A stretch of DNA of 64,000 nucleotides from Mobula hypostoma. Lineage: Eukaryota. The translations under genes were made by a program, and so were the position numbers. This document shows positions 189 to 64,000 of the stretch, piece after piece (the first letter of the stretch is position 1; each line of letters starts with the position of its first letter). Under the pieces are notes generated by a model. It did not search any database and was not told where the DNA came from. It saw only the letters and a program-made list of their open reading frames with translations. The stretch lies in the NCBI RefSeq assembly GCF_963921235.1, contig NC_086097.1:5146001-5210000 (forward strand), written 5' to 3'.

Positions 189-3150
189 ATGGAAACATAC
201 AACTGGCACCTCCTCGGGCTCTGTGAAGCCAGATGGAAGAACGCTGGAGAAGTGCATACTGAGGAAGGACATTTACTCTATTGTAGCAGAGAAGAGAACA
301 GACATGAAAATGGCGTAGGGTTCCTAGTCAACAAATCCATCAAGAACACTGTTCTAGGATGCCAACCAGTGTCAATCAGGCTCATGACCATTCGCCTGTG
401 AGTGAAGCCATTCAACATCACGGTGGCACGAGCCTACGCCCCAACAATAGACTACAACGATGAACACATTGCAGAATTCTATAAGAAACTACAAGATGTC
501 ATTGACAAGGTGGACAAAAAAGATATTTCAATCATTCAGGGTGACTGGAATGCCAAGGTGGGCGCAAGATGAGTTGGGGAAATCTCATCGGCCCCTCATG
601 CAATGACACCTCCAATGAGAGGGGACTACGCCTGCTGGAATTTGCCATTTGTAACAACATGGTGCTGACGAACACACTTGGAGAGAACAAAGAATCCCAA
701 AGATGGACCAGGCATGCCCCCAGTGGTCAACATCACCAGATCGACTACATCCTGGGGCAAAGATGGCACAAATCTGGTGTGAACAGACCGAAGACCAGAA
801 CATTCCCAGGTGCAGACGTGGGCAGTGACCATGACCTTGTCATGATGAACATCAGAGTGCGCTTGAGGAGAATCAACAAGCCAAAAAACAGTCGGCTGAG
901 ATTCAACCTTGAAAAACTGAAAGACCGCGCCATCTCTGAAGAATTTCAGGCAGCAGCTGGGGGGAAGTTTGCACCAATACTCCTCCTTGATGAAGACCTG
1001 GAGACCACCACAAATAACTTTAACACAGTGATGACAGAAACAACAAGCAAGATTCTGGGGAAAAGCCACCGCAAGTCGAAACCATGGGTCACTAACAAGA
1101 TACTGGATATGTGTGACACAAGAAGGAAATTAAAGAAAGATAAAAACACAGCAGAGGGAAGAACAGAATACAGGAAAATCAACAAGGAAATCAGCAGGTA
1201 AATGAAGGAAGCAAAGCAAAGATGGATAGCTGAACAATAGACATAGAAGACATAGAATAGTACAGCACAGTACAGGCCCTTCTGCCCACAATATTTTGCC
1301 GACCCTTAAACCCTACCTCCCATATAACCCCCCACCTTAAATTCCTCCATATACCTCCATATACAATGTGAAGACATTGAAGACAGCCTCTCCAACAACA
1401 ACACAAAGAAGGCATTCCAACTGGTGAAGGATCTTACCAAAGAAAAACAAGCCAAAGTGAACATCATCTAAGACAAAAATGTCAAAAGTCTCCTGGAAGA
1501 AATGGAAAGTTGGACAGAGTACTGTTCAGAACTGTACAACTACCAGAGCAAAGGGGATATAAGCGTGCTGAATGTGCAGGAGTCTTCCAATGAGGAAGAC
1601 TATCCAATCATGCATGAAGAAGTTGAAGCTGCAATACGATCACTCAAGTGAGGGAAGTCAGCAGGAATTGACAACACCCCTGCTGAACTGCTGAAGCAAG
1701 GAGGAGAGGCCACGATAGACATGCTTACCACCATCTGCAATGACATCTGGCAGACAGGTGAATGGCCGACACCTTGGACTCAGTCGCTGATCACTGTGCT
1801 TCCCAAGAAAGGCAATCTCCAACTTTGCCAGAATTACTGTACCATCAGTTTGATCAGCCATGTAAGCAAGGTAATGCTCAGAATCACCTTGAACAGACTG
1901 AGACCTCTGGCAGAAGACATCATTGCCGAGGAACAAGTAGGGTTCTGTAAGGGCAGAAGCACCACTGAGAAGATTTTCAACCTCTGCACCCTCTGTGAGA
2001 AACACCTTCAGCACCAGAGAGAGTTCTACCACATCTTCATAGACTTCAAGAAGGCGTTTGACAGAGTCTGGCATGATGCCTTATGGGCCACCATGAAGAA
2101 ATTCAACATGGGGCAGAAGCTGATTCATACAATCCATCAGCTTTACGCCAAGACAACCAGTGCAGTGCTCGCTCAGGGCATCATCGGGGAGTGGTTCCAT
2201 ACCACTGTAAGAGTTCGTCAGGGCTGCCTCCTCTCTCCCACTCTCTTCAAAGTCTTCCTGGAATGAATCATGAGTGTTGCCTTCGAAGATCATGTGGGCA
2301 CAGTCAGCATCGGAGGGAGGAACATCTCAAACCTAAGATTTGCTGACGACATTGATGGACTTGCAGGAAAAGAGGACTAATTGGCCAACCTGGTCAGCCA
2401 TCTTGATGGAGCCTCCACAAAGTTTGGAGTGGAAATAAGTGCCGAGAAAACCAAGCTCATAGCAAATGCCAACAGAGCCATCACATCTCAGTCCATGGTC
2501 AGAAACTTGAGACAGTGCAGCAGTTTAAATACCTGGGGGCAATCATCAGTGATGAAGGATCAAGACCAGAAATCCTGGCAAGAACCGCACAGACAATGAC
2601 TGCACTATCCAAACTCAAGACAATATGGAGGGACAGCAACATCACCATGAAGTACAAGATCAGACTCCTGTGTGCATTGATATTCTCCATCTTCCTGTAC
2701 ACATGTGAGACATGGACCCTCACAGCAGAGCTACAGAGGAAGATACAGGCATTGGGAATGAGATGCTATCGCAACATCCCGGGCATCCATACTTGGACCA
2801 CATCACTAACGAGCAGGTCCGCAAGACCATCCAGCACCACATTGGCCCCCATGAAGACCTTCTCACAACGGTAAAGAAAAGAAAGCTGAGATGGTCTGGC
2901 CACGTAACAAGATCCAGTGGCCTTGCAAACACCGTTCTACAACGAACTGTGGAGGGGAAAAGAAGGAGAGGTAGACAGAGGGAAAGATGGATGGACAACA
3001 TTAAAGAATGGACAGGGAAAACATTTGCGGTGACCCAGGCTCTGACACACAACCGCAACAGATGGAACAGACTGGTGCAAAGCTTGTCATGACTGCATCC
3101 CGATGACTCCACCAGGAGTTAAGGGCGCAAGGCAAGGCAAGGCAAGGCAA
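189..3150 (+). mobile_element. RTE-clade LINE, near-complete ORF (APE endonuclease + RT), disrupted by stops and frameshifts
   Basis: APE motifs LGLCEARW, GVGFLV, QIDYIL, GSDH (ORFs 189, 569). RT motifs FIDFKKAFDRV, QGCLLSP, LRFADD (~2333-2350). RTE C-terminus KLRWSGHV..VEGKRRRGRQRERW. 3' tail (GCAAG)n at 3127-3150. Confidence 0.93.
1239..1362 (-). mobile_element. Short CR1 3'-end insertion inside the RTE
   Basis: Matches the 3' end of the CR1 at 47082-47205 and the piece at 62449-62555. Flanked by ACAAT (1234-1238, 1363-1367). Removing it restores the RTE reading WIAEQCEDIED. Confidence 0.85.
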
Positions 3151-3307: not shown

Positions 3308-4150
3308 CATGTTCACTATCCCTTATCTGAAATCCTTGGGGTCAGTTACATTTCGGAATGCAGAATCTTTCAGATCTCAGAACCCCCCCCCCCCCGCCGC
3401 CCCGCCGATACCAAAAAGCACGTATGCTCAAGTCCCTTATTTAACCTGTCTCAGTGTAGTGGAATTTAGGACCCGTTGGCGCACCAAACCTACGCACATC
3501 CTCCCGTATACTTTAAATCATCTCTAGATTACTTAAAATACCTAATACAATGTAAATGCTATGTAAATAGCTGTTAACTGTATTGTTTAGGGAATAAAGA
3601 CAAGAAAAATGTTTATTTCCAACAAAAACATTCAATAAAACATCAAAATATACAGCTTCAAACGAACCGAATCAAACACATGGTAAATGACTTATTGGAA
3701 TACGGTAAATCTAGAACGTCACTGTCACTATAAAACTTCAGTAACTTGTCTGTTTATTTAAATCATATACAGTGGTAGTTCCGACACTATTTTCTTCGGT
3801 AAGACGCCGCACAGACACACCACGATCAAGCTTCTGCAATAACTCCACTTTCTGCGTTATTGATGACAGATGCTTCCTTCTCTTTTTCTCATTGTTACCA
3901 ATAGGAGAATCTGCAGCTCTTTTTGACATTTTCACAGTGAAATTAAACACAAAGTCAACAGTGAACCCAAAATATCAGGGAACAGCAAATGCACGTGTAA
4001 CCAGTAGGAGCGCTGAGCCACAACCGACGTCTGGCGGCCTCTGCTAGTGCCACCACGTCACATCTGAGTGACGTCAGCTGTTGGCGAGAAAAACTTTGGT
4101 TTTTGGAGCTTTTTGGATTTCAGAATTTCGGATAAAAGAATGTGCACCTG
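3308..4150 (-). mobile_element. Internally deleted Tigger/pogo DNA transposon (Tigger4/Zombi-like)
   Basis: TA on both sides (3306-7, 4151-2). Imperfect TIRs catgttcactatcccttatctgaaat / atttcggataaaagaatgtgcacctg. ORF 3738-3950 encodes a CENP-B-type HTH (KHLSSITQKVELLQKLDRGVSVRRLTEE..VGTTTVYDL). Confidence 0.85.
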
Positions 4151-4354
4151 TACAAGCCTAAGCTTCATCCTCCCACAGGCAGCCATGAAACGAAGAAACA
4201 CCATGGACCCCATTCATTTTGTATGCGTTGTCAGAAAAGGATAGTTAAAAAAGATCAGTCTGATGTTTGGATCTCAAGAACTAGGTGTAATGGTGGTTCA
4301 AAATAAGTGTTTCATGGAGTTAGATTTTCCACATACACAGACCTAATTGTATTC

Positions 4355-5236
4355 AATTTCAATAGTTTTCGGATGACTCTGCCATAGTTGGATGCATCAG
4401 CAAGGGAGATGAGGCTGAGTACAGGGCTACGGTAGGCAACTTTGTCACATGGTGTGAGCAGAATTATCTGCAGCTTAATGTGAAAAAGACTAAGGAGCTG
4501 GCGGTAGACCTGAGGAGAGCTAAGGTATCAGTGACCCCTGTTTCCATCCAGGGGGTCAGTGTGGACATGGTGGAGGATTACAATTACCTGGGGATATGAA
4601 TTGACAATAAACTGGACTGGTCAAAGAACACTGAGGCTGCCTACAAGAAGGGTCAGAGCTGTCTCTGTTTACTGAGGAGACTGAGGTCCTTTAACATCTG
4701 CCGGACAATGCTGAGGATGTTCTACGAGTCTGTGGTGGCCAGTGCTATCATGTTTGCTGTTGTGTGCTGGGGCAGCAGGCTGAGGGTGGCAGACACCAAC
4801 AGAATCAACAAACTCATTCGTAAGGCCAGTGATGTTGTGGGGATGGAACTGGACTCTCTCACGGTGGTGTCTGAAAAGAGGATGCTGTCTAAGTTGCATG
4901 CCATCTTGGTCAATATCTCCCATCCACTACATAATGTACTGGGTGGGCACAGGAGTACATTCAGCCAGAGACTCATTCCACCGAGATGCAACACAGAGCG
5001 TCATAGGAAGTCATTCCTGCCTGTGGCCATCAAACTTTACAACTCCTCCCTTGGAGGGTCAGACACCCTGAGCCAATAGGCTGGTCCTGGATTTATTTCA
5101 TAATTTCCTGGCATAATTTACATATTACTATTTAACTATTTATGGTTCTAATACTATTTATTATTTATGGTGCAACTGTAATGAAAACCAATTTCCCCCA
5201 GGATCAATAAAGTATGACTATGACTATGACTATGAC
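4355..5236 (+). mobile_element. Rex1/Babar LINE, 5'-truncated
   Basis: FSDDSAIVGCI..WCEQNYLQLNVKKTKEL and C-terminus FYESVVASAIMFAVVCWG..HPLH..SFLPVAIKLYN. AATAAA followed by a (ATGACT)n tail. Confidence 0.88.
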
Positions 5237-5358
5237 TAGTATGAAGTATGACTGTGCATGAAGTAGCACAGATTAATAATTGTTCTTTGTTGCTTTCTGC
5301 TGATCCTGCCCTCTTTATACCGGCAGTACATTGATGGAAACTGTGAGCGGTTTCAAAC

Positions 5359-5412
5359 TGTAGTGTATTTAATATTTCAGTAATATTTGAGTAATATTGT
5401 AAATATATTGTT
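5359..5412 (+). mobile_element. 5' half of a Gypsy LTR (family A), split by later insertions
   Basis: tgtagtgtatttaatatttcagtaatatttgagtaatattgtaaatata matches the start of the LTR copies at 46188, 49427 and ~61130. Confidence 0.7.
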
Positions 5413-7470: not shown

Positions 7471-7479
7471 CAAGGTAAA

Positions 7480-8975
7480 CTTTAGACTAGTTAGTCTGAC
7501 CTCAGTGGTTCAGAAGTTGTTGGAGTTGATTAGTAAGGAGAGGTCTCAGAGTGCTTGGAGGCACATGATAAAATAGGCTATAGTCAGCAAGATTTCCTCA
7601 AGGAAAAATATTGCCTGACAAATCTGTTGGAATTCTTTGTCTAAATAACAAGCAGGATAGCTAAGATTGTTGTTGTGCAACACACATAAAAGTTGCTGGT
7701 GAACGCAGCAGGCCAGGCAGCATCTCTAGGAAGAGGTACAGTCGATGGTTCAGGCTGAGACCCTTCCTCAGGTCCTGCCGAAGGGTCTCGGCCTGAAACG
7801 TCGACTGCACCTCTTCCTAGAGATGCTGCCTGGCCTGCTGCGTTCACCAGCAACTTTTATGTGTGTTGCTTGAATTTCCAGCATCTGCAGAATTCCTATT
7901 TTTGTTGTGCATTTGGATTTTCAGAAGGCCTTTGACAAGGTGACACACATGAGGCTGTTTAACAAGCTATGAGCCCATGGTATTACAGGAAAGATTCTAG
8001 CATGGATAAAGCAGTGGCTGATGGTAATGGCCAGTGGTATTCCACAGTGTTCTATGTCGGGACCGATACTTTTTACGTTATATATCAATGATCTGGATGA
8101 TGAAATTGATGGCTTTGTTGTATAGTTTGCAGATGATATGGAGGGGCAGGTAGTTTTCAGGAAATAAAGAGGCTACAGAAGGACAAACACAGATTAGGAG
8201 AATGGGCAAAGAAATTGCAGATGGAATACAGTGTCAGAACGTGTATGGTCATGCACTTCAGTAGAAGAAGTAGGTTGACTATTTTCCAAATGGAGAGAAA
8301 ATACAAAAAATTGAAGTGCAAAGAGACTTGGAATCCTTGTGCAAGATCCCCTAAAGGTTAATTTACAGATTGGGTCAGTGGTGAGGAAGACAAATGCAAT
8401 GTTAACATTCATTCCATGAGGGTTATGTAAAAGGCAAGGATGTGATGTTGAAACTTTATAAAGTACTGGTGAGGCCCCACTTGGAGTATTGTGAGCAGTT
8501 CTGGGCCCCTTATCTTTGAAAGATGTACTGAAGCTGGAGAGGGTTCAAAGGAGGTTAACGAAAATGATTCCTGGTTTGAATTGTCATATAAAGAGCTTTT
8601 GATGGCTCTGGGCCTGTATTCACTGGAATTCAGAAGCATGCAGAGTGACGTCATTGAAACCTATCAAATGCTGAAAGACCTTGATTTAGTGGATATAGAG
8701 AGTCCAAGACCAGAGCACTCAGCCTCAGAAAAGAGGGGTGTCCTTTTAGAATGGAGATGAGGAAGAATTTCTTTAGCCAGAGAGTGGAGAACCTGTGGAA
8801 TTTGTTGCCACAGGCAGCTGTGGAGGTCAAGTCGTTATGTATATTTAAGGCAGAGGCTGTTATATTCTTGATTGGTTGGGGCATGAAGGCAGGAGATTGA
8901 GGCTGAGAGGAAAATTGGATCAACCATGATGAAATGGTGAAGCAGACTTGATGGCCCAAATGGTCTAACTCCATT
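7480..8975 (+). mobile_element. CR1 LINE RT/3' fragment, decayed
   Basis: [22 protein letters not shown] motifs and a CR1 3' UTR. Confidence 0.85.
7680..7902. repeat. Fold-back (inverted repeat) PLE-end mini-element
   Basis: Arms ~7678-7772 and ~7773-7869 are reverse complements. TSD TGTTGTGCA at 7671-7679 and 7903-7911. Confidence 0.85.
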
Positions 8976-8984
8976 TTGAGATCT

Positions 8985-9582
8985 CATCAAAGTTGCTGGT
9001 GAACGCAGCAGGCCAGGCAGCATCTCTAGGAAGAGGTGCAGTCGATGTTTCAGGCCGAGACCCTTCGTCAGGACTAACTGAAGGAAGAGTGAGTAAGAGA
9101 TTTGAAAGTTGGAGGGGGAGGGGGAGATCCAAAATGATAGGAGAAGACAGGAGGGGGAGGGATGGAGCCAAGAGCTGGACAGGTGATTGGCAAAAGGGAT
9201 ACGAGAAGATCATGGGACAGGAGGTGTGGGAAGAAAGACAAGGTGGGGGGGAACCCAGAGGATGGGCAAGGGGTATATTCAGAGGGACAGAGGGAGAAAA
9301 AGGAGAGTGAGAGAAAGAATGTGTGTATAAAAATAAGTAACAGATGGGGTACGAGGGGGAGGTGGGGCATTAGCGGAAGTTAGAGAAGTCGATGTTCATG
9401 CCATCAGGTTGGAGGCTACCGAGATGGAATATAAGGTGTTGTTCCTTCAACCTGAGTGTGGCTTCATCTTTACAGTAGAGGAGGCCGTGGATAGACATGT
9501 CAGAATGGGAATGGGATGTGGAATTAAAATGTGTGGCCACTTGACGGAATATAAGGTGTTGTTCCTCCAACCTGAGTGTGGA
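8985..9582 (-). mobile_element. PLE 3' end / pseudo-LTR region
   Basis: Near-identical to 58980-59540 and 62795-63258. Encodes EEQHLIFHLGSLQPDGMNIDFSNFR*. A 35-bp partial duplication lies at 9547-9581. Confidence 0.85.
9039..9075 (-). ncRNA. Minimal type-I hammerhead ribozyme motif (PLE family 1)
   Basis: Minus strand reads AGUC-CUGACGA-AGG GUCUCGG CCU-GAAA-CA-UC-GACU: stem I AGUC/GACU, core CUGANGA and GAAA, stem II AGG/CCU. Confidence 0.65.
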
Positions 9583-9771
9583 TAAACCATTCTTTGTTGT
9601 TTACATAATTCATTGCAGTTATGTAGAAATATGTGAATGGCGTACATCATCACAATACACTACATGATACGTGCATGCCTCGCTTAAAGTACACACCAAG
9701 TTAGACTCTCATCTCTGACTCCGGTGTCTTCGTCTGAATTAGATTAATGTTTTGAAATTATGAAATATAAC
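9583..9771 (+). mobile_element. 3' half of Gypsy LTR family A
   Basis: cattctttgttgtttacataattcatt...tgaatggcgtacatcatcac...ttaatgttttgaaattatgaaatataac matches the remainder of the LTRs at 46188 and ~61130. Confidence 0.7.
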
Positions 9772-9779
9772 GACCAGGG

Positions 9780-46187: not shown

Positions 46188-46417
46188 TGTTGTGTATTTA
46201 ATATTTCAGTGATATTGTAAATATATTCTTTGATTAAGCATCTGTTTGTTTACATAATTCATTCTGGGCTATATGTAAAAAGTATGTGAATGGCATACAT
46301 CATTACGCCATCATGTCATATGTGCGCGTCTCGCTAAAGTGAAAACTGAGTCGACATATTTTCCTGGGCTCCCATGTTTTTTTTAAATTAATTTATGGAG
46401 TTACAAAAACATAATAA
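46188..46417 (+). mobile_element. Solo LTR family A
   Basis: tgttgtgtatttaatatttcag...gttacaaaaacataata; homologous to ~61130-61366. Confidence 0.75.
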
Positions 46418-48780: not shown

Positions 48781-49426
48781 GCACAGTAAACACGAACATG
48801 TTCACCCATTCATTGTTCAGGAGACATTGATGGCCAAGGCAAAGTGACAAGTGCTGTGAAAACTCAGGCTCAAAGCAGAAAAGCAGAAGAACATTCAAAA
48901 CACTGTCTTACATTTGTACTTCTTGTTTTCCCCCAAAGCCTGCGTGAGGATATTTCTCTTCCGGAACGTAGCATGCCCTGAAGGTGGAAAGGTATGTAAA
49001 CAGCACCATTAGGTGAACTGAGCAGAATGCTTCGTTCTGTGTAGGTTCTTTGGAATTATCATTGGTAATTCCCCTTTTAAATTTAAGCCTCTGTATTGTA
49101 TGCTCTCAAAGTTCTAAATAAGTGAAGAGAGAGCAAAATATTTAGGACTTTAGAGACCAGGTAGGTAAAATATAAATTTATGAACATTTTTATTTGTTTT
49201 ATATAGAGATACATCGTGAAACTGGCCCTTCCAGCCCAAAGAGCTGCATCACCCAGCCAACTACCTCTTGAACCCTAGGCTACTCACGGGACAATTTACA
49301 TTGATCAACTAAATGATCAGTGATCAATTAAACTGCTAACCGGTGCGTGTTTGGACTGTGGGAGGAGAAAAGAGCACCCAGAGAAAACCCATGCATTCAC
49401 ACCCACGCGTGGAGAGCGTACAAACA

Positions 49427-49649
49427 GTTGTGTATTTAATATTTGAGTAATCTTGTAGATAGTTTAATTAACCATCTTGTTTGCTTAAATTAATTATGGA
49501 TTATATATAAAAATACGCTAATTACATACGTCACCACACACGTGATACATGCATGGCTCACTTAAAGTAAACTTGAACTAAACTTGTACTCCCAGACTCT
49601 GTAACTTGCTTTGAATTAATTTAATGCTCTGAAGTTACAAAACATAACA
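49427..49649 (+). mobile_element. Solo LTR family A inside a SINE
   Basis: gttgtgtatttaatatttgag...gaagttacaaaacataaca. Confidence 0.75.
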
Positions 49650-54440: not shown

Positions 54441-57400
54441 TATAAAATATTATAAAGCATTATAAAACCTCAGTTTTATGAGACATTTACGATGGTAATT
54501 ATACATCTAACAGACAGAAGATTCATTTATCGATAAAGATGAGCACAGCACTGGACAGACTATCTGGCCCACATTGCCATGCTGATCTTGATAGTACAGA
54601 ATCCTTGTCTTGTGCATTACTCATATCACTCCTTCCCTTCATATTCATGTCTTTGTCTAAAAATATCTCAAACTCCACCAAACTTCCTGACTCCACTACT
54701 AGCTCCAGTAACCAATACTCCCTGCATTGAAAAAACTTGCCCCACACATGACCTTTAAACTCAACCCCCCTTCCCCCATTGTAAAAGCATGTCTTCTGTT
54801 GTTTGACACTTCTACACTGTGGAAAGGATTTTGACTTCTATAATTTTAAAAAATCTCTCACGGCCACCCTCTGCCTCTAACACTTCCAAGTTTGTCCTCA
54901 AACTCATAAAAAAATAGCTGCTGTCATGCCTTCTTTGTAATTGCATCAATATGTTGGATCCAGGATAGATCTTCAGAGATGTTGACACCCAAGAACTTGA
55001 AACTGCTCACCATTTCCACTGTTGATATCTCAATGAGAACTGGTGTGTTCCATCGACTTCCCCATCCATAATCAATTCCTTGGTCTTACTGATCACCGCT
55101 GGTCATAGTCCTCCACCCAGAATAAATGTCTTCCACCTTTACTTTTTGTCTTCTTTGGGCAAACCAGTTCTCAATGCACCCTGGACCCTGTATATCCTTA
55201 TCTTCCGAAATACCTTTTATTACAGACTTTATCAAATGCCTTATTAAACTCCATGTAGATAGTGTCCACTGCCTTGCCATCATCGGCCTCACTTGTTACT
55301 GCCTCAAAAAACTCAAAGTGGCATCAAGTGTAAACTAAATAGTCATAAAGTCAGAACACTGCAGCATAGAAACAGGTCCTTTGGCCCAGTCAGTCCATGC
55401 CGAACCATTAATCTGCCTAGTCCTGTCAACCTGTACCCAAACCATGGTCCTCCACACCCCTCCCATTCTTGTGCATATCCAAAGTTCTCTTTAGAGTTGA
55501 AATCGAACCCACATCCACCACTTTTGCTGGCTGCTCCTTCCACACTTGCACTCTGAGTGAAGAAGTTCCTACTCATATTACCCTTAAATATTTCACCTTT
55601 CACCCTTAACCCATGACCTCTAGATGTAGTCTCACCCAATTTCATTGGAAAAAGCCTTCTTATGTTTACCTTCTGCCTAAATAATTGAAGTTTGAAAGAA
55701 GTGGGTTGAATTCCATACAAATAGAGGTTGTTAGAGATTTTATATAACTTCTGAAATGGCAGGGTCACTTGTGTAAACTTCATTGCTTCAAGGATCAGTG
55801 TTTTGCAATAGAAGTAAAATTAGGTTAGAAGCAGGAAAGCGTAGAATGAGGCCATTCAGCCCATTGAATCCATTCCAGATTTTTGGTGAGCATTCTGCTT
55901 AGCCTTATTCCTCTGCCCTACGAATTAATTTCTGTGGAGAAAGGTCTTGGCCGAAAATGTCGACTTTTTTTTCATTTCCCAAGATGCTGCCTGACCTGCT
56001 GAGCTCCTCCAGCATTTTGTGTGCGTTGCTCAGGATTTCCAGCATCTGCAGGATCTCTCATGTTTATGAACAATTGGTGGTGTTAAAATGAAGAGGATTG
56101 TGTTCAGCCACAGAATAAAATTGATGAGTTTGGTAGAATGACAGAGCAATGACAGATGCAATTTAATCCTCATAAGATATGAGGTGATATACTTTGGGAA
56201 CTCTAGTAAAGCCAGAATATAAGTAATGAATGGTAGAGTCTCAGGAAGTTCTGAGATGCAGGAGATAATTAGTGTACATGTCCTAAAATCCCCAAAGACA
56301 GCAGAACAGATACTAAATGAGATGATTAAAAAACATATGAGATAGAAACTAGGGAATTGGGTTCAGGAACAGGATGGTTAAGGCACAGTGCACAAGTTAT
56401 TAATTAGGCCACAGTTGGAATAATATGTGCAGTCCTAGTGACCATACTGTAGGAAGAAAGTGATTGCACTGATAAAAAGTACAGAACAGATTTACAAGAC
56501 TATTAAACACCAGAGATTCTGCAGAAGCTGGAAATTCTTCCTGAATAACACACACAGAATGCTGGGGGAACTCAACAGGGTTGGCAGCATCTGTAGAAGT
56601 GAATAAACAGTCAACATTTTGAGCCAAGACCCTTCTTTGGGACTGAAAGGGAATGGGAGAGATGTCAGAATATGAAGGTGAAGGGAGGAAAAGGAGGTCT
56701 AGCTAGAAAGTGATAGGTCTAGCCAAGTGTGTGGGAAAGGTAGAGGGTTGGAGAAGAAGGAATCTGATAGGACAGGAGAGTGAACTATGAAAGAAGGGTA
56801 TTTTTAGCGAATTCAAGATGATTACCTTCAGTACCTATTGAAGAACAGTGAGATATTTGAGGTTAAAAAAAAGTGCAGTGAGACATTCGAGTTAAAAAAT
56901 AGCACAGCATGTGTAGAGACAGTTGAGCATAAAAAAAAGGCAGAAAACAGAATTCATGGATTCATGAACAGTGAGTGCTGGGTGATAACAATCATGAAAA
57001 AAGAACAGAAATGGCTGGCTACATCAGAAAGATTGACACAGTTGATTATACAGCAGATAACTGAATTTTATATACTAAATGTATCCAGCAATATTTTAAA
57101 GCAAGTGACAATTTTGTGAATTTTACTGAGTGGATTGGATTTAAAGGCTTACAGTTTGTTTAGCAGCTTGACTGCTCCAAGCAAGCCAGCAGAATTCAGC
57201 GGTCTGAAATCGTGAAAGCAAAGCAGGAACTTTTAGAACCAAAACGATTGTTGATTGTGGAACATTTCAGGTTTCATAAATGGAATCAAAAGAAGGCGGA
57301 GTCCATTTCAGCATACATGGCTGAATTGTCTAAGCATTGTCAGTTTGATAATGAGCTTAATGATGAGCTGAGGGATTGATTAGTTTGTAGAATCATACAA

Positions 57401-58167
57401 GAATATTTTTAAAAAATGGTTCCAAATTGAAGCACGACTTACATTTAAAAGAGCAGTTGAAATAGCTGCATCAATGGAAACCACAGAGCTGCAATTGAGT
57501 TGCAGTCAGGAATGAAAGTGAGCATGAACAAACTTGCAGCACCTAAACAGAAACTGGCCTGCCCCTGTTGTGGCAGGGGCTAACATGCAGATTTAAAGGT
57601 GAAACTTGCAGAAAAGCAACAAAGTAGGACACATACAAAGTGCATACCAGGCAGACAAGAATAAATGGACTGCACAGGGAAGAGAAAAAAAGTAAAAGTC
57701 AAGTTGCAGTTTCAGAAAGAGCAACAATCTGTATGCTATTTATGAAAAATCTGATAATGATAAGAGTGACACGGGACTGAATAGCTTTGAAATTTACATT
57801 GTAAAAACTAACTATTAAGCAATATGGCAGAAGTGAACTGCAAAGTAGTTAATTGGACACTGACTCGACTGTTTCAGTTATGCCACAAAATGAGTTTGAA
57901 TGACATTTCAGAAACACTGAACTGAAGACCGCAGGTACCCAACTAAGAACTTAAACTGGTAAAAAGATAACTCATGTGGGAATGATATTCATAGCAGTGA
58001 TATACAGCAACCAACAAGCTATTTTGGGCTTGCATGTGGTAAAACCAGAAGGGTCAGTATTGTGGGATCCTGATTGGCTGAGACAATTACAACTTGGTTG
58101 GAGATCCATCAACCGTTTGAATGACACATCCCCTGTAAAACAGTCAACTGAAAGTGAATTAAGAAAG

Positions 58168-58518
58168 CAACACACACACAAAAATGCTGGCGAACGCAGC
58201 AGGCCAGGCAGCGTCTATAGGAAGAGGTACAGTCTGACATTTGGGGCCAGGACCCTTCGTCAGGACTAACTGAAAGAAGAGGTAGTAAGAGATATGAAAG
58301 TGGGAGGGGGAGGGGGAGATCCGAAATGATAGGAGAAGACAGGATATCCAAAATCTTTCAAATCTCTTACTATCTCTTCTTTCAGTTAGTCCTGACGAAG
58401 GGTCTCGGCCCAAAATGTTGGCTGTACCTCTTCCTATAGATGCTGCCTGGCCTGCTGCGTTCACCAGCATTTTTTGTGTGTTGCTTGAAATTCCAGCATC
58501 TGTAGATTTCTACACGTT
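58168..58518. repeat. Fold-back PLE-end mini-element inserted in the Gypsy element
   Basis: Inverted arms ~58167-58300 and ~58357-58484. TSD TGAATTAAGAAAG / TGAATAAAGAAAG at 58155-67 and 58519-31. Confidence 0.85.
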
Positions 58519-58598
58519 TGAATAAAGAAAGGACTGGATGATGCCACAACTCTCTCCATGCCATCCACCTAAGCTGTTGCCTCACAGATGGCAAACAG

Positions 58599-60780
58599 GT
58601 GTTGGTGCCACCCTCTGTGCCCCAGGTGGAAAACGTATTGGACCACGGAAGGAAAATGCAACTCAGAAGAAGAGGAATTGATGATAGCAGTGGTCCAACT
58701 GCAACAGTTTTTGTTGGTAACCTATCTGAGAAAGCTTCCGATATGTTAATCAGGCAAATTACTTGCAAAATATGGCTTGGCTTGAGGATGGAAGAGAACC
58801 CAAGGAGCTTCAGGAAGGTTGCAAGCATTTGCCTTTTGCGAGTATAAACAACCAGAATCTACTCTGGGCATTAAGGTGATTGCATGATCTTCAAGTGCGA
58901 GACTAAAAGAAGGTTGTAAAAGTAGATGCAAAGACCAGACACAAGGAAATCTGCAGATGCTGAAAATTCAAGCAACACACATCAAAGTTGCTGGTGAACG
59001 CAGCAGGCCAGGCAGCATCTCTAGGAAGAGGTACAGTCGATGTTTCAGGCCGAGACCCTTCGTCAGGACTAACTGAAGGAAGAGTGAGTAAGGGATTTGA
59101 AAGTGGGAGGGGGAGGGGGAGATCCAAAATGATAGGAGAAGACAGGAGGGGGAGGGATGGAGCCAAGAGCTGGACAGGTGATAGACAAAAGGGATATGAG
59201 AGGATCATGGGACAGGAGGCCCAGGGAGAAGGAAAAGGGGGAGGCGGGGAAAAACCCAGAGGATGGGCAAGGGGTATAGTCAGAGGGACAGAGGGAGAAA
59301 AAGGAGAGTGAGAAAAAGAATGTGTGTATATAAATAAATAACAGATGGCGTACGAGGGGGAGGTGGGGCATTAGCGGAAGTTTGAGAAGTCAATGTTCAT
59401 ACCATCAGGTTAGAAGCTACCCAGACAGAATATAAGGTGTTGTTCCTCCAACCTGAGTGTGGCTTCATCTTTACAGTAGAGGAGGCCGTGGATAGACATA
59501 TCAGAATGGGAATGGGATGTGGAATTAAAATGTGTGGCCACTGGGAGATCCTGCTTTCTCTGGCGGACAGAACGTAGGTGTTCAGCAAAACGATCTCCCA
59601 GTCTGCGTCAGGTCTTGCCAATGTATCGAAGGCCACATCGGGAGCACCAGACGCAGTATATCACCCCAGCCGACTCACAGATGAAGTATCGCCTCACCTG
59701 GAAGGACTGTTTGGGCCCTGAATGGTGGTAAGGGAGGAAGTGTAAGGGCATGTGTAGCACTTGTTCCACTTACACGGATAAGTGCCAGGAGGGAGATCGG
59801 TGGGGAGGGATGGGGGTACGAATGGACAAGGGAATCGCGTAGGGAGTGATCCATGCGGAAAGCAGAGTGGGGGAGGGAAAGATGTGCTTAGTGGTGTGAT
59901 CCTGTTGGAGGTGGCGAAAGTTACGGAGAATTATCTGTTCGACCCGGAGGCTGGTGGGGTGGTAGGTGAGGACCAGGGGAACCCTATTCCTAGTGGGGTA
60001 GTGGGAGGATGGAGTGAGAGCAGATGTGCATGAAATGGGGGAGATGCATTTGAGAGCAGAGTTGATGGTGGAGAAAGAGAAGCCCCTTTCTTTAAAAAAG
60101 GAGGACATCTCCCTCGTCCTGGAATGAAAAGCCTCATCCTGAGAGCAGATGTGGCGGAGACGGAAGAATTGCGAGAAGGGGATGGCATTTTTGCAAGAGA
60201 CAGGGTGAGAAGAGGAATAGTCCAGATAGCTGTGAGAGTCAGTAGGCTTATAGTAGACATCAGTGGATAAGCTGTCTCCAGAGACAGAGACAGAAAGATC
60301 TAGAAAGGGGAGGGAGGTGTCGGAAATGGACCAGGTAAACTTGAGGGCAGGGTGAAAGTTGGAGGCAAAGTTAATGAAGACAGCAGGCAAAGACCAGGCC
60401 TGCTGGATGGATGGAAGACTGGAAAGAAAGGAGTCAATGGAGATACACAAAAAGAGGATTTGTCAGATACTGTTGTGGAGGAGGAATACAGGAGGAGAGA
60501 TCAGATCATAAAAGGAGCATTAGAAGGATTAAGAAGAGAATACTCCAGTGAACTAAATGTACCTTCCCAAGATCCACATGCTCATTCTAGGAAGAAGAAG
60601 GAAGTGGAGAAAAAGAAAGATGAAGTTGAAAAGAAGAGAAGAGATAGAGAGAAAGAACATGAAGGAAAAAGGGAGAGGTGAAAAGAAAGAAGGAATGTGA
60701 GAAAGCAATAGAGTTGGATAAAGAGAAAGAGAAAGAAGCAAGGACCAGGAGAGAAGCAAGGATTGAAGTAGATCCAGAGA
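58599..60780 (+). pseudogene. RBM25: Processed (intron-less) partial RBM25 copy: RRM to ER-rich region, split by a PLE
   Basis: GPTATVFVGNLSEKASDMLIRQ-LLAKYGL..WKRTQGASGRLQAFAFCEYKQPESTL..LHDLQ..VKVDAKT, then LDGWK..RRRDQIIKGALEGLRREYSSELNVPSQ..SRKKK..SRSREKS. Matches vertebrate RBM25 as recalled. Contains frameshifts and stops. Confidence 0.9.
58939..60386 (-). mobile_element. 5'-truncated Penelope-like element (RT thumb + GIY-YIG + hammerhead end)
   Basis: NFHPALKFT..LPFLDL..TDVYYKPTDSHSYL and VIYCVWC..RYIGKT. Hammerhead motif at 59034-59070. 11-bp TSD GCAAAGACCAG at 58928-38 and 60387-97. Confidence 0.92.
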
Positions 60781-62555
60781 GAAAAGCTGAGAAAAGGAGA
60801 AGAAAAATGTCCATAGCTGTGAGAACCATCTCCTGCAATTCCAGAGTCAACTCCTACAATCCTCATAGAGAATGCCCAGAACCTGAGATAGTTTCACAGC
60901 CACCAGTTACACCTGCCAGGCAGAGAGACCCCACCCCCACCCTGTCAGGAAAGATGTTATCCACAAGAGTAACAAATGCCCCAAAGCAATTAAATCTGTT
61001 GGCCTGAATAGGACAATTTTAAATTTACTAAGCTGTGGATGTTCTAAATAATAGTTGTAATATACAGTATGTTGTGTCTAAGTTGAGATGCATTCTATAT
61101 TGAGTTGGAGTTTATAACTAAGCAGGGAGTAGTGTGTGTTTAATGTTTCAGTAAAATTTGAGTAATATTGTATATTTATGATCTGATTAAGCACTGTGTT
61201 CTTTATATAATTCTATGGTTATATGTAGAAATACGTGAATTGCATACATCATCACACTACCATGTGATACATACACGCTCCCCTTAGGTAAACATGGGGT
61301 TAGAATTACATTTTGGACTCCCATCTTTCCCTTTGAATTAATGTTTTGAAGTTACAAAACATACCAAACAGGAAGGAGGAGGGGCACCAGGGGGTGGGGA
61401 GGGGACAGTGATAGGCAGATGAGAAGAGGAAAGAGACCAGAATGGGGAATTGAAGAAGAGGGAAGGAGAAGTTGATGCTCGTGCCTTCAGTTTGGAAGCT
61501 ACCCAGATTGAACATGAGCAGGCCATAAGCTTGGAGGCAACGTTGACTGATTATTCCCATCCTTATGCACTGCCTGACCTGTCGAGTTCCTCCAGTATTT
61601 TGTCTGTGTTCATTAGAATATTACTTAGGATAGAGTATTTCAATTGGAGGAGAGAATGGACAGGTAGCATTTGCTTTCCTTAGAGTGGAAAAATCAGACA
61701 GAAAACTGATCAAGGTACGCAAAATGATGAGAGGCAGAGAAAGAATAGAGAAATGTTTGCCCTTAGCAAAATGTCCTTTGCCAGAAGGTGCAGGCTGAAG
61801 GCAAAGGGTACGGAATTGAGAAGGGTGCCCATGAAGAAATATTTTCACCACGATTAGTTGATAACTGGAATTCTGCCTGAGGGTGTAGAATAGAGTCAGA
61901 CACAAATAAAACATTTTGGGCATGTTCAGGTGTGACCCTGAAATGCTATGGTACAGAAGGCCAGGATATAAGGTGTGGGAAATGGGATGGGATTGGCATA
62001 GATAGACATGTAAAGGTCAATTTAGCAGAGTGGCAACGAGGGCCCATTTCCTCATTCTAAAACTCCATCACTCTGTGACTATGACCAAAAAGAGGTGGAT
62101 GCAGCCCGAATTCATCACAAGAAAAGGCCTCCCCATCATTGAGCACAGCACAAGGAGCACTGCCGCAAGAAAGCAGCATCCATCATCAAGGACCCTGACC
62201 ATCCTGGCCATCCTCTATACTCAACCACTGCCATTGAGCTGGAGGTACTGGAGCCCGTAACATCGACTGTACTCTTTTCCAGAAATGCTGCCTGGCCTGC
62301 TAAGCTCCTTCAGCATTTTGTGTGTGTTGCTTGGATTTCCAGCATCTGCAGATTTTCTCTTGTGTATGTTCAGAATTGTGGTGAATATTAGGCCCATGGG
62401 TTGAGGTATTTGATGATGCACTGTTCGCCGAGCTTGGCAATGAGTCTACATAGAATAGTACAGCACATTACAGGCCTTTCGGCCCACAATATTGTGCCGA
62501 CCCTCAAACCCTGCCTCCCATATAATCCCCCACCTTAAATTCCTCCATATACCTG

Positions 62556-62750
62556 TGACATAGCTTGGTGACATTTCCTCACCAGTCAAGGTGACATCCT
62601 TATCGCGCTGTTGTTGGTGTTTCTCTCTGGGAGTGCTCGCATTTATATAGCCTTCCGTTCGCTTGCTTTGGTCCTGATTGTTTACCCATTCAGCTGGCCT
62701 TTGAATTCTATTGGTTTGCATTTCTTTAGCTGTTAGGTGTTCATAGATGG
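62556..62750 (-). mobile_element. 3' end of a third PLE-like family, tentative
   Basis: Minus strand has tatataaa followed by aggatgtcacc-ttgact-ggtgag-gaaatgtc, a degenerate hammerhead with stem II tcacc/ggtga. Confidence 0.4.
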
Positions 62751-62751
62751 T

Positions 62752-63258
62752 AAACACGAGGAAATCTGCAAATGCTGGAAATTCAAGCCACACACATCAA
62801 AGTTGCTGGTGAACGCAGCAGGCCAGGCAGCATCTCTAGGAAGCGGTGCAGTTAACGTTTCAGGCCGAGACCCTTCGTCAGGACTAACTGAAGGAAAAGT
62901 GAGTAAGAGATTTGAAAGTTGGAGGGGGAGGGGGAGATCCAAAATGATAGGAGAAGACAGGAGGGGGAGGGATGGAGCCAAGAGCTGGACAGGTGATAGG
63001 CAAAAGGGATATGAGAGGATCATGGGACAGGAGGTCCGGGGAGAAAGACAAGGGGGGAGGGAAAGCCCAGAGGATGGGCAAGGGGTATATTCAGAGGGAC
63101 AGAGGGAGAAAAAGGAGAGAGATAAAAATAAATAACGGATGGGGTACGAGGGGGAGCTGGGGCATTAGCGGAAGTCAGAGAAGTCGATGTTCATGCCATC
63201 AGGTTGGAGGCTACCCAGACGGAATATAAGGTGTTGTTCCTCCAACCTGAGTGTGGCT
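62752..63258 (-). mobile_element. PLE 3' end
   Basis: Same family as 8985-9582; hammerhead motif at 62849-62885. Confidence 0.85.
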
Positions 63259-63830
63259 TGTTGTACTTCTATTGACCTTTCATTAATATTCCTCAGAATA
63301 TAAGTGGTGTTTGATGTTCCCTTCCCTTCGACAAAGCCGCACTGTTCTCCACTGATCTCTGGTTTAATTTTGTTTCTTATTCTGAGCATGATGATTCTAA
63401 GTAGAATTTTTGTGATATGTCTCACTAAACTAATTTTTCTGTGTTGTCCACACTCTGTTGCACCTGATTTCTTTGGCAGTGCAATGAATACTGTCTTTAA
63501 AAGATTTTCTGGTACTTTGCCACTGTTGTATATTCTATTCAATAAGATTGTTAATTTCTCTACACCAAAATCTTCTAGCGCTTCATACAGTTCAACTGGA
63601 ATGCTATCTGGTCCTATCTGCCCCTTTTGCACTTTCTTCATAGCATGTTCCACTTCTTCTTTCATTATTGCTGGGCCCTCGTTGTTGTTGCCAATATCAA
63701 ACTTGCCCTCTCGGTCTTTGCTGTTGTATAGGTCTTTGATGTATTCTGACCATCTTTGCAATATTTTTCCCTTTTCGATAATTGTAGAGCCGTCTTTTGC
63801 TTTTACACATCGTGTTGCTGCCCCACTTTT
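63259..63830 (-). mobile_element. RTE LINE RT N-terminal fragment (distinct family from 189-3150)
   Basis: RWSEY..GPDSIPVE..FIALPKK..ISL..KILLRI..EQCGF..GT. Confidence 0.85.
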
Positions 63831-64000
63831 CTTCCGATTGGTGATTAGGCTCGGGTTAAATCGGGGGTCGTTGGGCAGTGTGGCTCATTGGTTCAGATGG
63901 GCCTGTTCCACACTGTATCCCTAAATAAATAGATAACTGAGACCTGGTGAGTAAATCTGTGATCCTGTCACTTAGCTGGATGGGAATAGCTCCAGTGAAG

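What the first reader, a model, noticed from the sequence alone, without database searches (positions are those of the whole stretch)
56798..61366. Gypsy retrotransposon whose pol core is replaced by a spliced host RBM25 mRNA fragment
Seen: gag and protease end just after ELRK-LDDAT (~58548). RBM25 coding sequence follows in the same orientation (58599-~60780, excluding a later PLE). The sequence then returns directly to the Gypsy pol C-terminal tail, PPT and 3' LTR. RT, RNase H and integrase are absent. The RBM25 piece is internal: no N-terminus, no PWI domain, no poly(A), no TSD. It runs uninterrupted across a region that is multi-exon in vertebrates as I recall. Established: LTR elements and retroviruses can capture co-packaged mRNAs by template switching. 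Inference: this is LTR-mediated gene capture rather than an ordinary LINE-made processed pseudogene, and may define a non-autonomous family carrying a splicing-regulator RRM.
Basis: partly seen in the sequence, partly recalled or inferred. Interest (0 to 1): 0.85.

Follow-up and report, generated by a model that had tools for sequence, protein, structure and literature searches.

The report
Retrotransposon family carrying captured RBM25 fragment
This is a decayed copy of a jumping-gene family that long ago swapped its own copying enzymes for a spliced piece of the host's RBM25 splicing-factor gene and then multiplied to more than a thousand copies, an unusually prolific case of a known kind of gene capture.

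Summary
Window 56797-61371 is a Ty3/Gypsy-type LTR element with leader, gag, protease, pol tail, PPT and 3' LTR. RT, RNase H and integrase are replaced by intronless RBM25 sequence. Two later insertions (58168-58519 and 58938-60386, each with a target duplication) interrupt it, and the 5' LTR is missing.

I found the host RBM25 gene on the same contig. The cargo matches nine consecutive exons with all eight introns removed.

- 5' junction: 7-nt microhomology (TGCCACA), followed by three host-specific bases.
- 3' junction: mid-exon, at a 9-nt microhomology (GAGAAGAAA).
- Both junctions keep the reading frame.
- There is no poly(A) tail and no target duplication around the cargo.

This fits two RT template switches, the model of Tan et al. 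2016.

The chimera is a family. The 5' junction pattern occurs 1342 times in the genome and the native PR-RT pattern 2824 times (reversed controls 0). Copies are about 72-82% alike, and the gag-PR tree is a star.

My own idea that splicing made the 5' junction was tested and dropped.

The scan had already found this family on other DNA in this genome (e1-7790852), and noted a SUDS3-carrying relative (not tested here).

Verdict: new member of a known kind, notable for its copy number.

The parts
56797..57163 (+). 5' leader of the element. The 5' LTR that should precede it is absent. A degenerate PBS-like stretch may lie just upstream (about 56775-56796).
   Evidence: L044's 5' LTR plus leader aligns from window 56797 onwards, and nothing LTR-like lies between 49649 and 56797. 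Alignment A1 shows the LTR end (..AAAACATAACA), then G, then a TGG-starting stretch in other copies.
57164..58167 (+). Decayed gag (CCHC knuckle region) and protease, with stops and frameshifts.
   Evidence: 72-80% DNA identity to 46 other genomic places. tblastn of the L045 gag-PR ORF hits 57550-58167, E 6e-36. zf-CCHC is found in relative L048, E 6e-6.
58168..58519 (.). Later insertion of a foldback repeat. Its target duplication is 58156-58167 / 58520-58531.
   Evidence: Inverted arms I3 and I4. The flanks abut in 14 of 18 other copies. The duplication is read from the sequence.
58520..58548 (+). Last bases of the protease/linker coding part (..ELRK.LDDAT), ending in the 5' microhomology TGCCACA (58542-58548).
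   Evidence: Alignment A2. The native continuation GCAGTGTTCAAGG occurs in RT-bearing copies.
58549..58937 (+). RBM25 cargo, first part: ACT from host exon X (58549-58551), the 48-nt alternative exon (58552-58598), RRM exons A (58599-58766) and B (58768-58825), and the 5' part of exon C (58824-58937).
   Evidence: blastn against the host gene at 79-83% identity. Host exon sequences. RRM_1 E 1.7e-10 in copy L014. RBM25 proteins E 8e-44.
58938..60386 (-). It has a 10-bp target duplication.
   Evidence: The duplication 58928-58937 = 60387-60396 is read, and host coordinates overlap by 10 nt. Copies 74-93% alike lie in host introns. Pfam finds nothing. The Atlas gives an HTH_animal lead at score 0.95.
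60387..60805 (+). RBM25 cargo, second part: rest of exon C, exon D, RE-rich exon F and the first ~30 nt of exon G. Exon E is missing in this copy. The part ends in the 3' microhomology GAGAAGAAA (60797-60805).
   Evidence: blastn against host exons at 81-97% identity. Exon E is present in 4 of 21 copies. Alignment A4.
60806..61007 (+). Pol C-terminal tail coding remnant up to the shared stop.
   Evidence: Homologous to the 3' end of RT/IN-bearing L045 and of L044/L048. The frame is open to ..PPQRLNL* in L050 and L016. The window ORF ends at 61007.
61008..61132 (+). 3' untranslated part with a purine run (61120-61129, AAGCAGGGAG) in the PPT position.
   Evidence: Sequence. A comparable run, AAACTGGGAGGAA, lies before the 3' LTR of L050.
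61133..61371 (+). 3' LTR, about 239 bp, TG...CA.
   Evidence: Matches LTRs that flank both ends of complete copies L050 and L051 and lie upstream of gag in L043, L044 and L048.

Best explanation
The locus is one old, dead copy of a non-autonomous Ty3/Gypsy LTR retrotransposon family. The family's founder arose when a spliced RBM25 mRNA was packaged together with element RNA.

Proposed route, inferred from the junction anatomy and the published model:
1. Reverse transcriptase copied the element's 3' end.
2. It switched at a 9-nt match (GAGAAGAAA) into RBM25 exon G.
3. It copied the mRNA back through eight exon-exon junctions.
4. It switched back at a 7-nt match (TGCCACA, at the end of exon X) into the element at the protease/RT boundary.

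The result is LTR - gag - PR - RBM25 (RRM plus RE-rich region, without the N-terminus or the PWI domain) - pol tail - LTR, in frame at both joints. Lacking RT, RNase H and integrase, the chimera must have been copied by the enzymes of RT-bearing relatives, and it reached well over a thousand copies.

Shown here: the anatomy, the exon map, both junction sequences, the copy counts and the RT-bearing relatives. Inferred: co-packaging, the order of the switches and trans-mobilisation.

The window copy later lost its 5' LTR and host exon E, and took two insertions.
For: **Cargo identity and origin**
- The cargo is RBM25. A 140-aa ORF of copy L014 hits RBM25 proteins at E 8e-44 and 70-75% identity, and carries RRM_1 at E 1.7e-10.
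- The host gene lies at C1:99791418-99840630 on the minus strand.
- The fullest copy, L051, maps to eight consecutive host exons at 74-91% identity with no intron sequence. The window maps to the same exons minus exon E.

**5' junction**
- Native copies read ..GATGATGCCACAGCA GTGTTCAAGG. Chimeras read ..GATGATGCCACAACT GTCTCCATGC. Host exon X ends ..CCTGCCACAACT, and the 48-nt exon starts GTCTCCATGC.
- The triplet after the shared bases is ACT in 70 of 100 listed chimera junctions and in 0 of 100 listed native junctions, by my count of the printed rows.
- The 48-nt exon is real. Joints with GT..AG ends link it to upstream exons, and loose ends link it to exon A, in contigs of 4 of 4 runs from one study.

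**3' junction**
- It lies about 30 nt into exon G, at GAGAAGAAA, which is shared with RT/IN-bearing L045.

**Family size and age**
- The 5' junction pattern has 1342 matches, the 3' junction pattern 570 and the native PR-RT pattern 2824, with reversed controls at 0.
- Of the first 100 exact matches to the element-side 15-mer, 29 continue as RBM25 and about 66 as native RT.
- Complete copies with both LTRs exist: L050 and L051.

**Helper elements**
- Relatives carry RVT_1 (E 2e-13) and rve (E 3e-8).
- Their RT matches proteins that sources name Gypsy retrotransposon integrase-like / K02A2.6-like, E 9e-90.

**Reading frame**
- ORFs cross the 5' joint in L014, L050 and L016. In L016 an ORF runs from exon D to the pol stop.
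Against: - The direct exon X to 48-nt-exon splice that the cargo implies was not among the joints listed in the four runs. There the 48-nt exon joins a 30-nt exon that the cargo lacks. Contigs drop rare forms, so this is weak evidence.
- The 9-nt 3' microhomology rests on a single RT/IN-bearing copy (L045), plus two internally deleted relatives that agree only in part.
- No target-site duplication could be read around complete copy L050, and none can be read for the window copy, which lacks its 5' LTR.
- Co-packaging and trans-mobilisation are inferred. No intact helper was shown: all RT/IN ORFs seen are fragments.
- The gag-PR tree does not separate chimeras from RT-bearing copies (0 of 14 inner branches supported). 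A single origin therefore rests on the shared junctions alone.
Confidence: 0.87

Rival explanations
1. Oncogene-style transduction. An element sitting in the RBM25 intron upstream of the 48-nt exon was read through. A cryptic splice donor (GT) at the PR/RT boundary was spliced to that exon's acceptor, which made the 5' junction. Only the 3' junction came from an RT template switch.
For: The first clearly alignable host base beyond the junction is the first base of the 48-nt exon, right after a ..TTTTCAG acceptor in the host. The native element has GT at the break. The exon is a real, spliced exon.
Against: The three bases before the exon read ACT in 70 of 100 listed chimera junctions, GCA in 71 of 100 listed native copies and ACT in 0 of those 100. 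ACT is exactly the end of host exon X, preceded by a shared TGCCACA. So the cargo starts inside exon X, which splicing from the element cannot give. No gag-PR remnant lies in the 100 kb around the host gene.
Confidence: 0.06
2. A DNA-level event. An ordinary LINE-made processed RBM25 pseudogene, or a double-strand-break repair patch, landed inside a Gypsy copy and deleted its pol. That locus then became a source element.
For: Capture of reverse-transcribed mRNA at DNA breaks is reported (title and abstract start of PMC4516963, seen in the listing only). LINE-type RT remnants are common in this window.
Against: There is no poly(A) tail and no target duplication. The cargo is cut at both ends inside exons, has the same orientation as the element, replaces pol rather than being inserted, sits in microhomologies of 7 and 9 nt and keeps the frame at both joints. 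These are the marks listed for LTR-mediated retrocopies (passages of PMC5131818).
Confidence: 0.04
3. The RRM segment is native to this Gypsy lineage, or host RBM25 took it from the element, rather than being captured from the host.
For: None beyond the fact that the segment is repeated more than a thousand times.
Against: RBM25 with the same RRM is found across vertebrates. The host gene splits this sequence over nine exons with GT..AG introns, seen spliced in RNA-like contigs. RT-bearing relatives have RT where the chimera has RBM25. The copies share residues peculiar to this host's RBM25, such as HIGPRKDHAAQRNRESDESSGPTTT.
Confidence: 0.01

Closest known systems
LTR-mediated chimeric retrocopies of animals (Tan et al. 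2016, Genome Res, PMC5131818; passages read)
   Same: An intronless host mRNA piece replaces part of the internal ORFs of an LTR retrotransposon. It is flanked on both sides by the same element, with microsimilarity at both fusion points (their median is 6 bp; here 7 and 9 nt) and no poly(A) tail or target duplication around the cargo. The paper notes that such loci can behave as non-autonomous elements and be retroposed again.
   Different: [quoted passage not shown] Here the chimera is ancient and its 5' junction pattern recurs 1342 times, about half as often as the native pattern. Both joints are in frame.
Bs1 of maize, an LTR retroelement with transduced host gene segments (as described in the review PMC13317346, passages read)
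   Same: An LTR retroelement lacks its own pol and carries fragments of host genes that form a hybrid ORF with element sequence.
   Different: Bs1 is a plant element with pieces of three genes. The low copy number of Bs1 is my recollection, not from a call. The present family carries one gene's contiguous exons and is high-copy in a vertebrate.
Acute transforming retroviruses (gag-onc fusions; the Swain and Coffin 1992 model as cited in PMC5131818; details recalled)
   Same: A replication-defective LTR element in which host coding sequence replaces pol. It is fused in frame to gag and depends on a helper.
   Different: The classical route uses read-through and often splicing for the 5' joint. 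Here the 5' joint lies inside an exon at a microhomology. There is no sign of env or of an infectious virus, and the spread is germline.
SVA subfamily with 5'-transduced host exon sequence in humans (mentioned in PMC13317346; details recalled)
   Same: A non-autonomous retroelement picked up host gene sequence, and the chimera then amplified as its own subfamily.
   Different: SVA is a non-LTR element moved by LINE-1. The capture there came through upstream transcription and splicing, and the copy numbers are tens rather than a thousand (recalled).

Membership tests
Ty3/Gypsy LTR retrotransposon (non-autonomous derivative) | Direct long terminal repeats with TG..CA ends | tested here: met
   Met for the family: the L050 LTR pair is 197/246 identical with TG..CA ends, and L051 has a pair. 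The window copy has only the 3' LTR.
Ty3/Gypsy LTR retrotransposon (non-autonomous derivative) | Domain order PR - RT - RNase H - integrase in autonomous relatives | tested here: met
   In L043, RT ORFs (3525-4289) precede Integrase_H2C2 (4286-4660) and rve (4797-5264). The L046 RT matches polyproteins with RVT_1, RT_RNaseH, Integrase_H2C2 and rve that sources name Gypsy integrase-like / K02A2.6-like, E 9e-90.
Ty3/Gypsy LTR retrotransposon (non-autonomous derivative) | gag with a CCHC zinc knuckle, and an aspartic protease | tested here: inconclusive
   zf-CCHC E 6e-6 in relative L048. No Pfam protease hit was obtained; the protease is recognised only by an ELDTG/LDTDS-like motif read by eye. 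The window's own gag-PR ORFs gave no Pfam hit.
Ty3/Gypsy LTR retrotransposon (non-autonomous derivative) | PBS after the 5' LTR, PPT before the 3' LTR, short target-site duplication | tested here: inconclusive
   A TGG-starting stretch after the LTR and a purine run before the 3' LTR were seen by eye. No tRNA match was tested. No duplication is readable at L050.
LTR-mediated chimeric retrocopy (Tan et al. 2016) | Cargo is intronless relative to a multi-exon parent gene | tested here: met
   Eight intron positions are precisely absent.
LTR-mediated chimeric retrocopy (Tan et al. 2016) | Cargo replaces internal element sequence and is flanked by parts of one element family in the same orientation | tested here: met
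   Both flanks lie in the same RT-bearing relatives, 1-4 kb apart. RT-IN is absent from the chimera.
LTR-mediated chimeric retrocopy (Tan et al. 2016) | Microsimilarity at both fusion points | tested here: met
   TGCCACA (7 nt) at the 5' joint. GAGAAGAAA (9 nt) at the 3' joint, with the native side known from one copy only.
LINE-mediated processed pseudogene | 3' poly(A), flanking target duplication, 3' end of the mRNA retained | tested here: not met
   The cargo ends about 30 nt into an internal exon and has no A-run or duplication.
Read-through/splice transduction (retroviral oncogene route) | 5' joint at a host splice acceptor joined to an element donor | tested here: not met
   Three host bases from the preceding exon lie upstream of the acceptor-defined exon.
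RBM25 (functional gene family member) | RRM plus RE/RD-rich region plus C-terminal PWI domain | tested here: not met
   The RRM is present and the RE-rich part is partly present. The PWI and the N-terminal exons are absent from all copies examined, because the cargo stops in exon G. All copies examined carry stops or frameshifts.

The most novel reading that the evidence does not exclude
The cargo may not have been a passive passenger. Both joints are in frame, so the founder encoded one Gag-PR-RBM25(RRM + RE-rich)-pol-tail protein. An RNA-binding domain fused to Gag could have favoured packaging of its own RNA into helper particles. Alternatively, a PWI-less RBM25 piece could have acted against host RNA processing or silencing. 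If that note is right, this Gypsy lineage repeatedly picked up nuclear regulators and each chimera thrived, which would point to cargo that helps the element.
Probability: 0.07. Interest if true: 0.85.

Novelty: new member of a known kind. Interest (0 to 1): 0.45.

Why it matters
LTR-mediated capture of host mRNAs is documented in animals mostly as single, young loci. This case differs in three ways.

- **Scale.** The chimera became a major repeat family in a vertebrate. It has over a thousand copies, about half as many as its helper lineage at the same site.
- **Annotation.** Host coding sequence, an RRM, has been scattered across the genome. These copies look like RBM25 pseudogenes or 'RRM domain proteins' and can mislead gene annotation.
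- **Mechanism.** Both junctions can be read to the base, which gives a clean natural example of microhomology-guided template switching.

The map also exposed two in-frame alternative micro-exons in the host RBM25 gene. If cargo-bearing families turn out to recur in this lineage, one can ask whether the cargo affects a non-autonomous element's success.

Tried and rejected
1. **Splice-donor model for the 5' junction.** After I favoured this model. I dropped it when the host exon X sequence and the junction triplet counts showed three host bases upstream of the 48-nt exon.
2. **Host RBM25 through Pfam PWI (PF01480).** The 3 matches were other genes, SRRM1-like and PRPF3-like by my reading (names recalled). 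RBM25 was found instead with the C-terminus of a public RBM25 protein.
3. **A 5' LTR for the window copy.** None lies between 49649 and 56797. Other LTR-like hits in the window are no closer to the 3' LTR than unrelated family members.
4. **Target duplication at complete copy L050.** Not readable.
5. **Identity of the 1.45-kb insertion as a Penelope-like element.** Pfam gave nothing on three ORFs. The Atlas gave only an HTH_animal lead. Left open.
6. **Rfam over 55500-63500,** looking for ribozyme-like motifs in the foldback repeat. 0 matches at gathering score.
7. **gag-PR tree** of 10 chimeric and 7 RT-bearing copies, to test a single origin. It is a star, with 0 of 14 inner branches supported, so it is uninformative.
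8. **Sequencing runs.** No RNA holder is listed. The four runs laid are labelled 'RNA?' as a guess, and their GT..AG joints are what I used.
9. **The SUDS3-carrying element noted earlier.** Whether it shares this backbone or breakpoint is therefore untested. Among the first 100 exact matches to the element-side 15-mer, no third recurrent continuation appeared.
10. **A second cargo element between the LTR-like hits at 46188 and 49649.** That stretch holds a LINE-like RT on the minus strand and no gag-PR.

Full report
**What is at the locus**

The window lies at G000:C1:5146001-5210000 in a 3.48-Gb genome. Earlier notes of this scan call it a cartilaginous fish; I did not test that.

On the plus strand, 56797-61371 reads as follows:
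- a leader;
- decayed gag with a knuckle region and protease, up to 58167;
- a 352-nt foldback insertion (58168-58519);
- the last protease/linker codons (58520-58548);
- RBM25-like sequence (58549-58937);
- a 1449-nt insertion on the other strand (58938-60386);
- more RBM25-like sequence (60387-60805);
- a pol C-terminal tail ending at 61007;
- a purine run;
- a 239-bp LTR (61133-61371).

Both insertions carry target duplications, 12 bp (11 of 12 alike) and 10 bp (10 of 10), read. Other copies lack them: the flanks abut in 14 of 18 and 16 of 18 loci. So they came later.

This copy has no RT, RNase H or integrase. An RT/IN-bearing relative (L045) matches it only in gag-PR and the tail, apart from unrelated nested repeats. 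No 5' LTR is present.

**The cargo is RBM25, taken from a spliced mRNA**

A 140-aa ORF from copy L014 found 324 proteins at E <= 0.001 among 630 candidates. The best named ones are RBM25 of many vertebrates, at E 8e-44 and 70-75% identity. It carries an RRM_1 domain, E 1.7e-10.

I located the host gene with the C-terminus of a public RBM25 protein and mapped its exons in 100 kb of fetched DNA.

The window's cargo aligns to host exons at 79-97% identity, with intron sequence absent at each boundary. The fullest copy held, L051, aligns to eight consecutive exons at 74-91% identity:
- the 48-nt exon;
- exons A, B, C, D and E;
- the RE-rich exon F;
- the first 30 nt of exon G.

With the three bases from exon X described below, nine exons are touched and eight introns are gone.

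The copies share residues peculiar to this host's RBM25.

Structural variation among 21 copies:
- Exon E is present in 4.
- No exon F match is found in 7.

At least three structural variants therefore exist, and the window belongs to the one without exon E.

**The junctions**

*5' junction.* RT-bearing copies read ..CTGGATGATGCCACAGCA GTGTTCAAGG (the start of RT). Chimeras read ..CTGGATGATGCCACAACT GTCTCCATGC. In the host, the 48-nt exon begins GTCTCCATGC right after a ..TTTTCAG acceptor.

This first led me to a splice-donor model. But host exon X, two exons upstream, ends ..CCTGCCACAACT. The chimera's ACT is therefore host sequence, preceded by a shared TGCCACA. The triplet is ACT in 70 of the 100 listed chimera junctions, and GCA in 71 and ACT in 0 of the 100 listed native ones (my count of the printed rows). 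The switch thus lies in a 7-nt microhomology inside exon X.

Contigs of four runs from one study show GT..AG joints that link the 48-nt exon to an upstream 30-nt exon. Loose ends link it, and also the 30-nt exon directly, to exon A. So the 48-nt exon is a real alternative exon. The direct X-to-48 joint implied by the cargo was not among the listed joints.

*3' junction.* Host exon G reads AGAGAGAAAAGCCGAGAAAAGGAGAAGAAAAGGGAT. Chimeras read ..AAGGAGAAGAAAGGTGTCCAGAGCTG. RT/IN-bearing L045 reads ..CGTTAGAGAAGAAAGATGTCCAGAGCTG. The overlap is 9 nt, GAGAAGAAA. It is mid-exon and far from the mRNA's 3' end, with no A-run.

*Reading frame.* Reading the codons, GCC ACA at the 5' joint and GAG AAG AAA at the 3' joint are in the same phase in host and element. 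The founder therefore encoded one continuous Gag-PR-RBM25-pol-tail frame. ORFs that cross the joints survive in L014, L050 and L016. By chance this would happen one time in nine.

**It is a family**

| Window part | First-look candidates | Identity of scored matches |
|---|---|---|
| gag-PR | 8863 | 68-80% |
| RRM piece | 2447 | 79-82% |
| 3' piece | 8917 | 71-83% |

Forty candidates were scored in each search.

| Junction pattern | Mismatches allowed | Matches | Reversed control |
|---|---|---|---|
| 5' junction of the chimera | up to 3 | 1342 | 0 |
| 3' junction of the chimera | up to 2 | 570 | 0 |
| Native PR-RT junction | up to 3 | 2824 | 0 |

Of the first 100 exact matches to the element-side 15-mer (1234 in all), 29 continue as RBM25, about 66 as native RT and about 5 as something else. 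No third recurrent class appears.

L050 and L051 are complete, with two LTRs of about 245 bp and TG..CA ends. The L050 pair is 80% identical (197/246) and the L051 pair 69% over 199 nt.

A gag-PR tree of 10 chimeric and 7 RT-bearing copies is a star. None of its 14 inner branches is supported, and its terminal branches are 0.09-0.16 substitutions per site. This indicates an old burst, with capture close in time to the family's expansion. It does not by itself prove one origin; the shared junctions do that.

**The backbone is Ty3/Gypsy-like**

- Relatives carry RVT_1 (E 2e-13), Integrase_H2C2 (weak), rve (E 3e-8) and a CCHC knuckle (E 6e-6), in the order RT before integrase.
- The L046 RT ORF matches polyproteins that their sources name Gypsy retrotransposon integrase-like or K02A2.6-like, E 9e-90.
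- Other internally shortened relatives exist: L044 and L048 have the RNase H start fused to the same tail region.

**Mechanism and comparison**

The anatomy matches, feature by feature, the LTR-mediated retrocopies described by Tan et al. 2016 (passages read). In both, cargo replaces internal ORF sequence, is flanked by one element, shows microsimilarity at both switch points and has no LINE hallmarks. That paper also notes that such loci can act as non-autonomous elements.

I therefore read the origin as two microhomology-guided template switches by RT between co-packaged element RNA and RBM25 mRNA, followed by trans-mobilisation. The co-packaging, the order of switches and the helper dependence are inferred.

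Three things differ from the published animal cases:
- the scale (over a thousand copies against one or a few);
- the age;
- the double in-frame fusion.

Maize Bs1 (review passages) and gag-onc retroviruses are functional analogues.

**Literature searches**
- RBM25 with retrotransposon and shark: none of the 15 listed papers holds RBM25.
- LTR-retrotransposon gene-fragment capture in cartilaginous fishes: none of the 12 listed papers holds 'cartilaginous'.

Neither search turned up a description of this family. These searches cover only the held open-access library.

**Relation to earlier notes of this scan**

Note e1-7790852 describes another copy of the same chimera 564 kb away, with the same reading. 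My work agrees with it and adds the host exon map, base-level junctions, frame and counts. Note e1-7790823 reports a SUDS3-carrying Gypsy family 24 kb beyond the window. I could not fetch that region, so it remains an untested lead.

**Verdict**

The finding is a new member of a known kind and is notable for its amplification. Whether the RBM25 cargo ever helped the element is open, and I rate it unlikely.

Noticed in passing
L037 (G000:C1:99830001-99840000), minus strand: 7504..7474 and 2631..2584: The host RBM25 gene has two in-frame alternative micro-exons (about 30 nt and 48 nt) between the exon ending ..MGIMTPATT and the RRM exon. GT..AG joints and loose ends in contigs of 4 of 4 runs show both inclusion and skipping. 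Neither micro-exon is in the public RBM25 proteins I looked at.
   Followed up: partly
window 5357-5412, 9581-9777, 46188-46413, 49424-49649: Further LTR-like matches to the same Gypsy family, all on the plus strand. The pair at 46188 and 49424 is 3.2 kb apart, but a LINE-like RT on the minus strand lies between them and there is no gag-PR. They are probably solo or broken LTRs.
   Followed up: partly
window 58168-58519 and 58939-59147; also 55938-56068, 56539-56644, 62253-62368: The first insertion is a foldback (inverted dimer) of the same ~170-nt unit that begins the second insertion. The unit is very common in the window and in host introns. No Rfam family matched at gathering score.
   Followed up: partly
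L044:2826-4670 and L048:6469-7652 (minus): Other non-autonomous derivatives of the same Gypsy lineage: the start of RNase H is fused to the pol tail within about 10 nt of where the RBM25 cargo rejoins the element. This may be a recurrent switching or deletion site.
   Followed up: no
L043:6674-7897: A long tandem array with a unit of about 51 nt, open in three frames (..PRPLTWSHISPPSITPL.. repeated), sits just downstream of an RT-bearing copy.
   Followed up: no
window 63165-63884, minus strand: A 239-aa ORF with a weak RVT_1 match (E 2.6e-4, below Pfam's cut-off), a non-LTR-type RT remnant outside the finding.
   Followed up: no
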